Positions 24,001 through 27,000 of a stretch of 50,953 nt of DNA are shown here, piece after piece. A program made the position numbers. The number at the start of each line of letters is the position of its first letter. Within the stretch, counting starts at the first letter, position 1. Source of the DNA: Escherichia phage Lys8385Vzw. The stretch lies in sequence record MT225100; one strand, written 5' to 3'.

Positions 24001-27000
24001 CATCGTCATAACGCTTACTGATGCGTCGGGTTAATTCTTCCTTTAACGCATCCACAGCACCGTTTGGCATTTTAGTCATTTTTTCTTTGGCTATGCAGAT
24101 CTCAATACGCATAAAAGTCCCTCTATACTGTGTTTGTATACAGTATTATTTTTAACTGTATGGATAAACAGTGTCAAGAGGTCTTATTTCTGCTCCTTTG
24201 GAGCTCTTCAAAACGATTATGTAAAGATTTCGGATACAGTTCGGTATATACCTGCCATAGCACGTTTAATGAACGATGCCCTGTAACCTGAGCGACTTCC
24301 TCAATACTAAAACCAGCCTCAAATAAGCGACTTGCCCCTTCTCTACGCAAATCATGGTATCGCAGATCTTTAATACCTAATTTGCTTCTTACCCTCTGAA
24401 ATCCTGCAGTAACAGAAGTGCTGTTATATGGAAAAATGAATTCCGATTTTTTGGGCTGTCGTTGGACGATATCCCAGGCTTCCCCAAGCAAGGCTACTTT
24501 CATGTGGTTGCCTTCCTTTTTGCGTGGATCTTTCCTGTCTCTTACGAGTATAGATTTTTGTTCCTGGTCGAGATCTTCCCATCGTAACCGGCATACTTCT
24601 CCGATCCGCATACAGGACCACACAGAAAATTTGAGGATATCAACGAACGGAATTTTTGAGCATTTATGAGTAGATCGTTGTTGAAGGCCTTCAATGAGCA
24701 TGTCCAGTTCATCAGATGCTGGTCTACGATTACGACGGTTTGATTTACCAATCAAACCAAGTTTAAGTAGATATGGGCGAGCGCTTTTCGCTGGGTTTGA
24801 TGTGTAATTAATTCCATATACAGGTTTGGCAGCATCCAGAACACTGCCAAGATAACTAACATCGTGGCTAACTGTAGCTGGACCTGCACCAGCGTTGTTT
24901 CTTAGCCTGCAATGTTCAATTACGTCATTTTCTGTCAGTTCAGATAGTTTGATCGCGGAGATGTCACTATCCATAAGCAGTTCCAGCACATATCTTTTAG
25001 TACGGCCTGCTTTACCTCCGGCATTTGGGTCATTTAAATATTTGTGTAGTAAGTCACGGACTGTAAGTCCGTCAACTGCATTTGATGATGGAATGCCATA
25101 TAGATCTAATTCCATCACTTTCTGTGTGCCCCATGTTTTGGCATGAGCATGTTTAGGGAATGTTTTGCTTTCCCTGTAAGTGATAACACCTTTTTCTTTG
25201 ATAATCACATTACAGCGATAGCGTGGTGTGCCATCGGATTTTAGTCGTTTCTCTATGTTATAGTACGCCATTACACGACCTCGTTATTTCGGGTTCCCAT
25301 AAAACGTGGGAACCTGTGCGGGAACCTAACGCGAGAAAAATAGCCTGAAATGTTCAAAAATGCACGATAATCATGAAACACTAAAAATTAATCAAACCAG
25401 CGTGATGCCTGAAAAAACTGGTGTTTACTGGAATTCTCGGTTTAGCATTGCTCCCATGCTCGAATGCTCGATAGGATGTACCGTTTTTGAAAAACAACTA
25501 GTTATGCACTTTGTGGGAGCCTATTGGGAACCTGTTATTCTTAGAAAGCATCATTTGCTCATCACTTCAATTGACCATGGTTAAAGCCAGCTATAAACTT
25601 GACAAACGAGGTAACTGGTTGCTTAGGCCCAAGTGGGCACACCATAAGAAGCTCATGTTGGTGATGAAGCAACCCATGAAGTATCGAGAATAATTATAAA
25701 GTTCACTATCTTTGAGGTTTCTTATATGTTTTGCGAAGAAAAAGTAGCTCAAATGGCTGCATACCTACTTCTTAAGAGAGGTGGGCGCATGGCATATCTG
25801 AAATTGATGAAGCTGCTCTATCTGTCTAACCGCCAGTCGATTTTGAAGCATGGCAGGATGATCGGCGAAGATAGCCTTTACTCTATGAAATTTGGACCAG
25901 TCATGTCGAATACGCTGAACTTGATTCGCGGTAAGGCTGAAGGCATTGGTGACTACTGGTACAACTTGATAGAGACGAACGGGCATAATGTATCGTTGCG
26001 TTCAGATCCGAGGGAAATGGATGCAGACGAGGTCTTTGATGAATTGAGTCGTGCAGATATCCGGATTTTAGATGAAATCTATTCTCGGTATGGGCATATG
26101 AACCGATTTGATCTCGCAAATATGACGCATTTAGAAAGCGTTTGTCCAGAGTGGCACGATCCTGGCAATTCTCGTAAGCCTATAGACCTGAAAGAAATGC
26201 TGATCAGTGAGGGTAAAAGCGAGGATGAGGCTAATCGCATAATTGGCAAAATGGAAGAATCTCAGAAACTTAAGGAATTTTCTTTGCAATTATCATGACG
26301 GATTATCAGCCATACAGGAAAGGAACTGTGCTTGCCCCAACTGGACCATGCAATCATCTTCATGTGATTTGTAATGATCCTGTTTATTACCCCGTTAACG
26401 ATTGTTATTGTGTTTTAGTTGTTAATATTTCTAGTATCAAGGATGGTGTCCCCCACGATCCGTCTTGCGTCTTGAATTCTGGTGATCATCGCTTTATCAA
26501 GCATCCAAGTTATGTTGTTTACGCTGAAGCTATAATTTGGCGAGTGGATAACATGGTTAGAAAGCAGCGATCGGGTGAGATTTCTGTTCATGATGATATG
26601 CCAGAAGCTACATTCAATAGAATTCTGGACGGTTTTGATATCTCTGATGAAGTTACGCCAAAGAACCTTAAATTTAAAAATAAATATTGCGTATCATCTA
26701 TTGATGATGAGTAAACAACAGGAATTGTTTCGGTATAACTTCTGGAGTTTTCTATGGAAGATCAAAAAGCAACCAAGCCACAGGTTAAGTTCGACACAAT
26801 GAAAGCATTCGTAGGTATGGGTGCTGCTGTTGAAGTTCTGATGAAGGCTGCTCCTAATGCGTTCACTCACGCTACTGTCTCTGGTAAAGAGCAGCAGGGT
26901 AAGCTTCGTCGTCTCAAAGCAGCATGATCATAGCTGGTGCTTTTTGAAAACCCGCCTTCAGGCGGGTTTTTTCTTTAGTGATTTTCTTTGCCCTTCTGTT

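What the first reader, a model, noticed from the sequence alone, without database searches (positions are those of the whole stretch)
24120..24172. Tandem LexA boxes place the phage dinI-like gene under SOS control, next to int
Two CTGT-N8-ACAG palindromes (tactgtgtttgtatacagta; aactgtatggataaacagtg) lie directly upstream of the DinI homologue and within about 5-50 nt of the int stop codon. A phage-borne SOS-induced DinI could modulate RecA co-protease activity and hence prophage and Stx induction dynamics.
Basis: partly seen in the sequence, partly recalled or inferred. Interest (0 to 1): 0.45.

Follow-up and report, generated by a model that had tools for sequence, protein, structure and literature searches.

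The report
SOS-controlled dinI gene on Stx phage
A Shiga-toxin phage carries a small self-contained gene cassette whose promoter is covered by two near-perfect binding sites for the host DNA-damage repressor LexA, so its DinI-like (RecA-binding) protein should be made only after DNA damage. This arrangement is already known for related phage dinI genes.

Summary
Two exact CTGT-N8-ACAG palindromes lie 28 bp apart in the 61-bp gap between the int stop codon and the ATG of an 82-aa DinI-family gene on the minus strand. They are the only credible LexA sites in the 51-kb phage: about 22-24 bits against a next best of 10.2, with 0.007 hits of at least 18 bits expected by chance. The distal box fills the spacer of a promoter whose TTGACA -35 contains the int stop codon. 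The proximal box covers the predicted transcription start.

The promoter, both boxes, dinI and a 95-nt 3' flank travel as one roughly 410-bp cassette, found in at least four genomic contexts. The design is kept in 15 of 17 homologous loci from Escherichia, Shigella, Pantoea, Erwinia, Mixta and Trabulsiella, and in a separately fetched Salmonella locus. The LexA-contact bases are invariant or nearly so there, although synonymous sites are saturated.

LexA control is therefore strongly supported in silico but has not been tested for this clade. Direct LexA control of phage dinI homologues is already established for the Gifsy prophages and reported for phiKO2, so this is a new member of a known kind. 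An effect on Stx induction remains speculation.

One side observation: the phage also encodes a 108-aa stand-alone LexA DNA-binding domain.

The parts
24172..24177 (-). -35 hexamer TTGACA of the dinI promoter. The int stop codon TGA (24176-24174) lies inside it.
   Evidence: Promoter scan, 10 of 12 matches. The same promoter is annotated in the phage mEp460 record. Homology between different prophage contexts starts exactly here. TTG is invariant in 37 distinct sequences.
24154..24173 (.). Distal LexA box (box 2). Read on the minus strand it is CACTGTTTATCCATACAGTT. It fills the -35/-10 spacer.
   Evidence: Exact CTGT-N8-ACAG. 22.0 bits. ACTG and CAG are invariant while the centre varies.
24148..24154 (-). 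Predicted -10 region TAAAAAT, read as AAAAAT with an 18-nt spacer or TAAAAA with a 17-nt spacer.
   Evidence: An A-rich hexamer is kept at this position in distant relatives. No transcription start has been mapped.
24126..24145 (.). Proximal LexA box (box 1). Read on the minus strand it is TACTGTATACAAACACAGTA. It covers the predicted transcription start.
   Evidence: Exact CTGT-N8-ACAG. 24.4 bits, the best site in the window. CAGT is invariant.
24118..24123 (-). Shine-Dalgarno sequence GAGGGA, 5 nt upstream of the ATG.
   Evidence: Read directly from the sequence.
23864..24112 (-). dinI-like gene, 82 aa, a DinI-family predicted RecA-filament-binding protein.
   Evidence: PF06183 at 70.8 bits. 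PHROG 189 at 109 bits. Aligns with 1GHH/7YWA DinI at E = 8e-13, with the C-terminal ETWESAD-WF helix conserved. dN/dS is 0.04-0.17. It falls below the NCBIfam equivalog cut-off for chromosomal DinI, 72.5 against 111 bits, so it is a paralogue.
23769..23863 (-). Conserved 3' flank of the cassette, ending in a hairpin (about 23772-23794) with no U-tract.
   Evidence: Homology among contexts ends 319-350 nt after the ATG, most often at 344. Fold (z = -1.6, not significant). No consensus terminator was found.
24174..25271 (-). dusA-type tyrosine integrase, immediately upstream on the same strand.
   Evidence: PF00589. It lies next to dusA in related prophages. A dusA 5' fragment at 25360-25464 marks the attP side.
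32687..33340 (-). Context: CI-type repressor (HTH plus peptidase S24), the presumed RecA*-dependent induction switch that a DinI-like protein could influence.
   Evidence: Its operators, ATGTAGG-N4-CCTACAT at 33339-33403, are unlike LexA boxes.
37564..37890 (+). Possible second ligand of the boxes (not shown): a 108-aa stand-alone LexA DNA-binding domain encoded in the nin region.
   Evidence: PF01726 at 69 bits, full length. Aligns with E. coli LexA residues 2-69 at E = 7e-16, with S39, N41, A42, E45, R64 and G65 kept. PHROG 362.

Best explanation
The 61-bp int-dinI gap is a compact sigma-70 promoter carrying two host-LexA operators.

In the lysogen, LexA dimers are predicted to occupy two sites. 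The distal box spans the whole -35/-10 spacer and would block RNA polymerase binding. The proximal box lies over the predicted start site. Together they would keep the dinI-like gene tightly off. This binding is inferred, not shown.

DNA damage activates RecA, LexA cleaves itself, and the promoter fires. Two high-affinity operators suggest tight repression and late induction. The 82-aa DinI-family protein then binds RecA filaments through its acidic C-terminal helix, as E. coli DinI does, and tunes RecA co-protease activity. This step is inferred from homology.

The promoter, operators, gene and 3' flank form an autonomous, horizontally mobile cassette (a 'moron'). It sits at the cargo end of lambdoid prophages, opposite in orientation to the late genes. 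In this phage it happens to be fused to the 3' end of a dusA-type int, so that the int stop codon lies inside the -35 hexamer.

Whether the protein raises or lowers the induction threshold of this CI/S24-repressed Stx phage is not known.
For: - **Operator quality and rarity:**
- **Promoter geometry:**, with independent annotation of the same promoter in the mEp460 record.
- **Cassette boundaries:** sharp homology breaks at the -35 hexamer and about 95 nt after the stop, across at least four upstream contexts. These are the dusA int, the smpB/ssrA end, a 428-aa integrase followed by ATGCCCCA repeats, and an IS-rich ykgJ region.
- **Deep conservation:** TTGACACTGT plus two boxes is kept in 15 of 17 genome-scan loci (Escherichia, Shigella, Pantoea, Trabulsiella, Mixta, Erwinia, plus one contig labelled Chryseobacterium) at 58-99% protein identity, and in a separately fetched Salmonella locus (L102).
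- **Footprint:** in 37 distinct sequences the LexA-contact bases are invariant or nearly so (ACTG and CAG of box 2, TG and CAGT of box 1), while the box centres and the spacing (24-29 bp) vary. Synonymous sites of the gene are saturated, pS about 0.8.
- **A functional protein:** dN/dS is 0.04-0.17, and DinI-family membership is clear.
- **Precedent:** the Gifsy-1, -2 and -3 dinI homologues have a LexA box, are induced 4.6-23-fold by nalidixic acid, and head a LexA-controlled operon (PMC3121763, PMC8072944). The phiKO2 DinI-like gene has an annotated lexA site and is reported as LexA-regulated (PMC7556043).
- **A plausible target:** the phage repressor has an S24 domain, so RecA* is relevant to its induction.
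Against: - There is no LexA binding, transcription start or expression data for this clade.
- Papers searched on SOS or antibiotic-induced STEC transcriptomes mention only the chromosomal dinI. The Sakai array excluded near-identical lambdoid genes for lack of specific probes.
- The -10 element is weak and its exact register is ambiguous.
- Transcription from int could read through into dinI, because no terminator lies between them.
- The position weight matrix was built from operators recalled from memory, and only one was verified here.
- DinI's net effect on RecA depends on concentration (own knowledge: Yasuda 1998, Lusetti 2004).
- Gifsy dinI-homologue deletions had no effect on induction (PMC3121763).
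Confidence: 0.8

Rival explanations
1. Dual-repressor gate. The boxes are read by host LexA and also by the phage's own 108-aa LexA DNA-binding-domain protein (37564-37890), which lacks the S24 self-cleavage domain. This protein would be made from the delayed-early nin region after induction. It would re-occupy the dinI operators, and possibly host SOS boxes, once host LexA is gone. dinI would then be expressed only in a short window.
For: - The protein is a full-length LexA_DNA_bind domain, with recognition-helix and wing residues S39, N41, A42, E45, R64 and G65 conserved.
- It forms a defined phage family, PHROG 362.
- The only two LexA-like sites in the phage are those at dinI.
- Many phages carry both elements: mEp460, SKA5, phiSTEC1575-Stx2k, PhiR40_1 and the Stx2c phages.
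Against: - No binding data exist.
- LexA needs its C-terminal domain to dimerise, and the isolated N-terminal domain binds DNA weakly (own knowledge). Whether the 40-aa tail dimerises is unknown.
- E44 is replaced by V and R28 by N.
- Co-occurrence is not strict. No Stx1a- or Stx2a-converting record appears among the organisms matched by the mini-LexA, although 21 and 29 such records carry the dinI cassette.
Confidence: 0.1
2. The cassette is mainly a lysogenic-conversion gene for the host rather than a regulator of the phage's own induction. Extra SOS-induced DinI copies would damp RecA-dependent mutagenesis or filamentation, or improve survival of DNA-damaging drugs. Any effect on Stx induction would be incidental.
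For: - The cassette is independent of phage type, immunity and integrase.
- It also occurs outside recognisable prophages, for example next to prfC with a bacteriocin gene in Salmonella.
- E. coli genomes hold up to 9 matching places, partial remnants included.
- A DinI-like gene in a viral region was associated with the emergence of quinolone resistance (PMC10575684).
- Gifsy dinI deletions do not change induction (PMC3121763).
Against: No phenotype has been measured for this clade. This reading is compatible with the best explanation at the level of regulation and differs only in who benefits.
Confidence: 0.35
3. The palindromes belong to int biology. They could be an int transcription terminator, recombinase or IHF arm sites of attP, or a downstream regulatory site for int, rather than operators for dinI.
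For: They abut the int stop codon.
Against: - The same boxes travel with dinI where no int is upstream.
- attP, marked by the dusA 5' fragment, lies on the other side of int at 25272-25464.
- Four-base arms separated by 8 nt cannot form a terminator, and none was detected.
- The phage CI operators have a different sequence.
Confidence: 0.02
4. Chance occurrence of AT-rich palindromes in an intergenic region.
For: Intergenic DNA is AT-rich, and two other exact CTGT-N8-ACAG matches exist in the window.
Against: - 0.007 hits of at least 18 bits are expected per 51 kb, against 2 observed 28 bp apart.
- The half-sites are conserved across genera.
Confidence: 0.01

Closest known systems
[quoted passage not shown] 2011, PMC3121763; Merida-Floriano et al. 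2021, PMC8072944)
   Same: A phage-borne DinI-family gene with a LexA box over its own promoter, induced by DNA damage, forming an SOS locus inside a lambdoid prophage.
   Different: - Gifsy has one box overlapping the -10. This phage has two, with the distal one fused to the -35.
- The Gifsy DinI belongs to another subfamily (77 aa).
- The Gifsy gene lies in the early-right region, after terminators, and heads an operon with a small antirepressor that drives induction. Here no antirepressor ORF follows, the gene sits at the int/tail-fibre end, and the phage repressor is a cleavable CI/S24 type.
Klebsiella phage phiKO2 gene 22 (DinI-like) with an annotated lexA binding site (Casjens et al. 2004; NC_005857)
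   Same: A DinI-like gene placed after the tail genes and opposite to them in orientation, with a LexA site between the promoter and the gene. It is reported to be LexA-regulated (PMC7556043).
   Different: - It has a single box, at 26.2 bits.
- The protein is much more divergent.
- It is paired with a divergent UmuD-like gene.
- The prophage is a linear plasmid.
Chromosomal dinI of E. coli, Salmonella and Klebsiella
   Same: The same protein family and fold, with end-to-end alignment to 1GHH. It is a LexA-repressed SOS gene. The distal box of distant cassette relatives (CACTGTATAAATAACCAGTT) nearly equals the E. coli dinI box ACCTGTATAAATAACCAGTA (recalled from memory).
   Different: - The window protein is a paralogue, not an equivalog: 72.5 bits against a cut-off of 111.
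- Chromosomal dinI has one strong box. Salmonella has a second, weak one with heterology index 17.6 (PMC8072944).
- Chromosomal dinI is not mobile.
Tum of coliphage 186, and the Fels-2 and PSP3 tum/dinI pairs
   Same: LexA-controlled phage genes with a DinI-like part. The PHROG 189 profile is 151 positions long and the window protein matches positions 71-149.
   Different: Tum carries an N-terminal antirepressor half that triggers induction (PMC3121763). The window gene is the DinI part alone.
Multi-operator SOS promoters (lexA, recN, colicin genes)
   Same: More than one LexA box over a single promoter, giving tighter repression (own knowledge; box numbers for recN and lexA in PMC8072944).
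   Different: The centre-to-centre spacing here varies from 24 to 29 bp among relatives. That argues for positioning relative to the -35 and the start site rather than a fixed cooperative phasing, as in lexA (21 bp) or the overlapping colicin boxes.

Membership tests
Gammaproteobacterial LexA (SOS) operator | 16-bp core CTGT-N8-ACAG with an AT-rich centre, close to TACTG(TA)5CAGTA | tested here: met
   Both cores are exact. Box 1 matches 17 of 20 consensus positions. Scores are 24.4 and 22.0 bits, within the range of recA, sulA and uvrB in the same matrix.
Gammaproteobacterial LexA (SOS) operator | Overlaps or adjoins the promoter of the regulated gene | tested here: met
   Box 2 lies between the predicted -35 and -10. 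Box 1 lies just downstream of the -10. The promoter is predicted, not mapped.
Gammaproteobacterial LexA (SOS) operator | Contact bases conserved in orthologous promoters while other positions drift | tested here: met
   In 37 distinct sequences from several genera, ACTG and CAG of box 2 and TG and CAGT of box 1 are invariant, while the centres vary.
Gammaproteobacterial LexA (SOS) operator | Bound by LexA, with DNA-damage-dependent and lexA-dependent expression | not testable with these tools
   No data were found for this clade. It has been shown for the Gifsy homologues (PMC3121763, PMC8072944).
DinI family (PF06183) | Profile match above the curated threshold over the whole domain | tested here: met
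   70.8 bits against 24.2, covering profile positions 1-63 of 63. PHROG 189 at 109 bits.
DinI family (PF06183) | Roughly 80-aa protein with the acidic C-terminal helix that contacts RecA (ETWESADDWF in E. coli) | tested here: met
   Aligned 1-81 to 1GHH/7YWA residues 1-79. The C-terminus reads [10 protein letters not shown].
DinI family (PF06183) | Binds RecA nucleoprotein filaments and modulates co-protease activity | not testable with these tools
   Inferred from homology only.
Chromosomal DinI equivalog (NCBIfam NF007893) | Score above the equivalog cut-off | tested here: not met
   72.5 bits against a cut-off of 111. It is a paralogous, phage-type clade.
Gifsy-type LexA-controlled dinI-antirepressor induction operon | A small antirepressor gene immediately downstream of dinI in the same transcription unit | tested here: not met
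   The cassette ends about 95 nt after the stop. The only minus-strand ORF before nleG is a 34-aa TTG ORF lying mostly outside the cassette.
Gifsy-type LexA-controlled dinI-antirepressor induction operon | A phage repressor that is not cleaved and must be inactivated by an antirepressor | tested here: not met
   The repressor here has an HTH plus a peptidase S24 domain at 88 bits.
Prophage 'moron' (autonomous cargo transcription unit) | Own promoter and sharp homology boundaries in different phage backgrounds | tested here: met
   Homology starts at the -35 and ends 319-350 nt after the ATG, most often at 344. At least four upstream contexts were found.
Prophage 'moron' (autonomous cargo transcription unit) | Own terminator | tested here: inconclusive
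   There is a 3' hairpin at about 23772-23794 with no U-tract. No consensus terminator was found.

The most novel reading that the evidence does not exclude
The two operators form a two-repressor timing gate. Host LexA holds dinI off in the lysogen. After induction, the phage's own uncleavable 108-aa LexA DNA-binding-domain protein (37564-37890, nin region) takes over the same boxes, and possibly host SOS boxes. The DinI-like protein, and perhaps the whole SOS regulon, would then be expressed only transiently in cells committed to lysis. A weaker add-on: because no terminator was found, SOS-induced transcription from this promoter may run on into the downstream nleG type III effector gene.
Probability: 0.1. 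Interest if true: 0.6.

Novelty: new member of a known kind. Interest (0 to 1): 0.3.

Why it matters
Antibiotics that trigger the SOS response drive Stx phage induction and toxin release, and RecA* activity is the controlling step. A RecA-binding protein made only during SOS could shift the induction threshold or the timing of toxin production. The cassette is near-complete in about a quarter of complete E. coli genomes, and some genomes hold several copies or remnants (up to 9 matching places). It could also affect SOS mutagenesis and drug tolerance.

The regulatory principle is not new, because LexA-controlled phage dinI genes are documented in the Gifsy prophages and phiKO2. The contribution here is a precise map of the promoter and operators for the E. 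coli and STEC clade, and evidence that the two-operator design is ancient and mobile. That makes the deletion and reporter experiments straightforward to design.

Tried and rejected
- **Phage CI binding the palindromes.** Rejected. The cI-cro operators are ATGTAGG-N4-CCTACAT.
- **A Gifsy-like antirepressor ORF after dinI.** None is present.
- **A 3'-UTR sRNA like Klebsiella DinR (PMC10907235).** The 95-nt 3' flank is conserved with the cassette, but its fold is not significant (z = -1.6). Rfam gives only a sub-threshold CssrB hit on the opposite strand. This was not pursued.
- **Terminator or attP role for the palindromes.** Rejected.
- **Published expression data for the phage-type gene.** Papers on the SOS response or antibiotic treatment in STEC gave only chromosomal dinI, or excluded repeated prophage genes. 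One array study saw a dinI-like locus (c0943) fall together with SOS genes, but its clade was not checked.
- **Genome-collection scan with a protein alignment.** It returned only 17 loci, enough for architecture but not for statistics.
- **Other LexA sites in the window.** The other two exact CTGT-N8-ACAG matches (34345, 48342) score no more than 7.7 bits and were dismissed.
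Full report
**What the window is.** The window is a circularly permuted genome of a lambdoid Stx-converting phage that integrates into dusA.
- Window 23700-24400 is 100% identical to prophages in O103, O121, O145, O111 and O157 strains.
- In those genomes the int gene lies directly next to an intact dusA and is transcribed inward.
- The sequence to the right of int in the window (from 25357) maps about 50 kb away, at the other prophage end. It starts with a dusA 5' fragment. attP therefore lies between the int start (25271) and about 25464.
- The window encodes a ribosome-inactivating A subunit and a Shiga-toxin B subunit at 41960-43195. These are annotated Stx1a in the near-identical RM8385 prophage.
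- It also encodes a CI-type repressor with HTH and peptidase S24 domains at 32687-33340.
- An NleG effector gene lies at 22620-23540 on the minus strand.

**Check of the observation.** On the minus strand the order is int (25271-24174), a 61-bp gap, then an 82-aa ORF (24112-23864).
- The gap holds two exact CTGT-N8-ACAG cores, at 24128-24143 and 24156-24171.
- Read on the minus strand, the gap is TTGACA-CTGTTTATCCATACAGT-TAAAAAT-AA-TACTGTATACAAACACAGTA-TAGAGGGACTTTT-ATG.
- The exact pattern is expected 0.71 times in the whole window.
- I built a symmetrised weight matrix from 21 E. coli operators recalled from the literature. One of them, uvrA/ssb, was found at the expected place in L001.
- With that matrix the two 20-mers score 24.4 and 22.0 bits, comparable to recA and sulA. 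The next best site in 51 kb scores 10.2 bits.
- In 300 simulated 51-kb sequences, hits of at least 18 bits occurred 0.007 times on average.
- The sites are therefore real and are the only credible LexA sites on this phage.
- The ORF is a DinI-family protein: PF06183 at 70.8 bits and PHROG 189 'RecA filament binding protein DinI'. It aligns end to end with E. coli DinI (1GHH/7YWA), including the C-terminal acidic helix.
- It falls below the NCBIfam equivalog threshold for chromosomal DinI, so it is a phage-type paralogue.

**Anatomy of the promoter.**
- The promoter scan finds TTGACA (24177-24172), an 18-nt spacer and AAAAAT (24153-24148), matching 10 of 12 positions.
- The annotators of phage mEp460 marked the same promoter in a 97%-identical copy.
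- The int stop codon TGA (24176-24174) lies inside the -35 hexamer.
- The distal box begins at the last two bases of the -35 hexamer and ends at the start of the -10. The proximal box begins two to three bases after the -10 and covers the expected start site.
- A GAGGGA Shine-Dalgarno sequence lies 5 nt before the ATG.
- No plus-strand promoter and no terminator were detected in the gap.

**The cassette is a mobile unit.** I compared 80 IMG/VR loci carrying a protein at least 98% identical.
- Homology to the window either continues into the dusA-type int or breaks exactly at the -35 hexamer, about 65 nt before the ATG.
- Downstream, homology ends 319-350 nt after the ATG, most often at 344. 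That is about 95 nt past the stop codon, just after a hairpin.
- The alternative upstream contexts are of three kinds. One is smpB followed by about 850 nt that I presume holds ssrA, ending in a terminator-like hairpin. Another is a different 428-aa integrase followed by ATGCCCCA repeats. The third is an IS-rich region next to ykgJ.
- The unit is therefore about 410 bp (window about 23769-24177): promoter, two operators, gene and 3' flank.
- It is covered at 80% or more in 1421 of 5426 complete E. coli genomes. Up to 9 matching places occur per genome, partial remnants included.
- In the phage collection it occurs in 128 records, many of them Stx1a, Stx2a and Stx2c phages.

**Comparative test of the operators.**
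- A scan of one genome per species with a protein alignment returned 17 loci at 58-99% protein identity. They come from Escherichia, Shigella, Pantoea, Raoultella, Trabulsiella, Mixta and Erwinia, plus two contigs labelled Chryseobacterium and Saccharibacteria.
- Fifteen of the 17 have the same design, TTGACACTGT followed by two boxes of 14-23 bits. Two (the Raoultella locus and the contig labelled Saccharibacteria) keep only the proximal box.
- A Salmonella copy next to prfC, found separately, has the same design.
- I aligned 37 distinct upstream sequences. The invariant columns are TTG of the -35, ACTG and CAG of the distal box, and TG and CAGT of the proximal box.
- The centres of both boxes, the -10 and the spacing between boxes (24-29 bp centre to centre) vary.
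- Over the same distances the gene's synonymous sites are saturated (pS 0.67-0.84). Non-synonymous change is low (pN 0.14-0.22), and dN/dS is 0.04-0.17 where it can be measured.
- This is the pattern expected if both palindromes are bound through their CTG/CAG half-sites and if the protein is functional.
- The variable spacing argues against a fixed cooperative phasing. It fits each box being placed relative to a promoter element.

**What is already known.**
- In the Salmonella Gifsy prophages, the dinI homologue is preceded by a LexA box and heads a LexA-controlled operon that also encodes the antirepressor triggering induction (PMC3121763).
- Those genes are induced 4.6-23-fold by nalidixic acid and have one SOS box each (PMC8072944).
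- My scan of Gifsy-2 confirms a single box over the -10 and a protein of a different subfamily.
- The phiKO2 record annotates a lexA binding site before its DinI-like gene, which lies opposite the tail genes as here. It has one box, and PMC7556043 cites it as shown to be LexA-regulated.
- PMC7556043 also predicts a LexA site before a DinI-like gene of a Serratia phage.
- The idea that a Stx-phage DinI would limit induction has been stated (PMC8456039).
- I found no paper describing the two-operator promoter of this clade or measuring its expression.

**Mechanism and its limits.** Shown directly by the sequence:
- the sites and their positions;
- the cassette boundaries;
- the conservation;
- the family membership of the protein.

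Inferred:
- LexA occupancy and SOS induction, with high confidence given the precedents;
- RecA-filament binding, from homology;
- tighter or later induction because of two strong operators, from general SOS knowledge.

Not known:
- the direction and size of any effect on CI cleavage and Stx production.

DinI stabilises RecA filaments at moderate levels and inhibits co-protease functions at high levels (own knowledge: Yasuda 1998, Lusetti 2004). Gifsy dinI deletions had no effect on induction (PMC3121763), although Gifsy repressors are not cleaved.

**Rivals.**
- The phage CI operators are a different palindrome.
- A role in int termination or attP is excluded by the cassette's independence from int and by the location of attP.
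- Chance is excluded.
- A host-benefit (lysogenic conversion) reading is compatible with the regulation and cannot be separated from a phage-benefit reading here.

**Side finding bearing on the boxes.**
- The nin region encodes a 108-aa protein (37564-37890) that is a complete LexA DNA-binding domain without the S24 domain.
- It aligns to E. coli LexA residues 2-69 with S39, N41, A42, E45, R64 and G65 conserved.
- It forms its own phage family, PHROG 362.
- It is present in 60 phage records, including SfV, SfII, cdtI, mEp460 and the Stx2c phages, several of which also carry the dinI cassette.
- It might bind the same boxes once host LexA is cleaved. This is untested, and co-occurrence is not strict.

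**Verdict.** The case is a new, more elaborate member of a known kind of phage SOS locus. The link to Stx induction is open.

Noticed in passing
window 37564-37890 (+): A 108-aa stand-alone LexA DNA-binding domain in the nin region, between the N6-adenine methyltransferase and RusA. PF01726 scores 69 bits and it aligns with E. coli LexA residues 2-69 at E = 7e-16. It has no S24 peptidase domain, and its tail keeps an Ala-Gly (LAGE) resembling the LexA cleavage site. It belongs to PHROG 362 and is present in 60 phage records (SfV orf42, SfII, cdtI, mEp460, Stx2c phages). It could bind LexA boxes after host LexA is cleaved.
   Followed up: partly
window 24172-24177: The int stop codon TGA lies inside the TTGACA -35 hexamer of the dinI promoter. 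Homology to int-less copies of the cassette begins exactly at this hexamer, so the int reading frame appears to end within the inserted cassette.
   Followed up: yes
window 22620-23864 (-): No consensus terminator, and no strong minus-strand promoter, was found between the dinI stop and the NleG effector gene on the same strand. In an ssrA-end context (L029) an NleG-like gene also follows dinI in the same direction. SOS-induced read-through into a type III effector gene is possible.
   Followed up: partly
L108 2501-2652 (E. coli K-12-type chromosome, between ykgJ and ecpE): Most E. coli genomes, about 3500 records at 80-90% identity, hold an unannotated 150-nt remnant. It consists of the cassette's 3' flank plus the last ~19 codons of the dinI-like gene. 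In some strains (L082) a full copy sits next to ykgJ.
   Followed up: partly
L102 3938-6736 (Salmonella enterica, next to prfC): A dinI-like gene with the same two-box promoter lies just upstream of a colicin/pyocin-S-type bacteriocin gene and its immunity gene. The bacteriocin gene has its own LexA-like box (17.3 bits at 4563). There is no recognisable prophage context.
   Followed up: no
L106 45544-45563 (phage Gifsy-2, right end): A very strong LexA-like site (AACTGTTTGTATATACAGTA, 26.6 bits) lies near the right end of Gifsy-2, beyond the end of sseI (42753) and about 300 bp from the record end. It is separate from the known dinI box.
   Followed up: no
window 33339-33403: The cI-cro intergenic region carries repeated ATGTAGG-N4-CCTACAT palindromes, which are probably the immunity operators of this phage.
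   Followed up: partly
window 23782-23868 (+) and 23721-23794 (+): RefSeq annotates a 'capsid protein' C-terminal pseudogene fragment on the strand opposite the cassette's 3' flank (seen in L001). Rfam gives a sub-threshold match to the Shigella sRNA CssrB there (24 bits against a gathering score of 76).
   Followed up: no
window 25360-25584 (+): A phage-borne dusA 5' fragment (RFSIAPML...) lies next to the int start. It marks attP of a dusA-integrating phage, and it shows that the window is a circular permutation of the prophage.
   Followed up: yes
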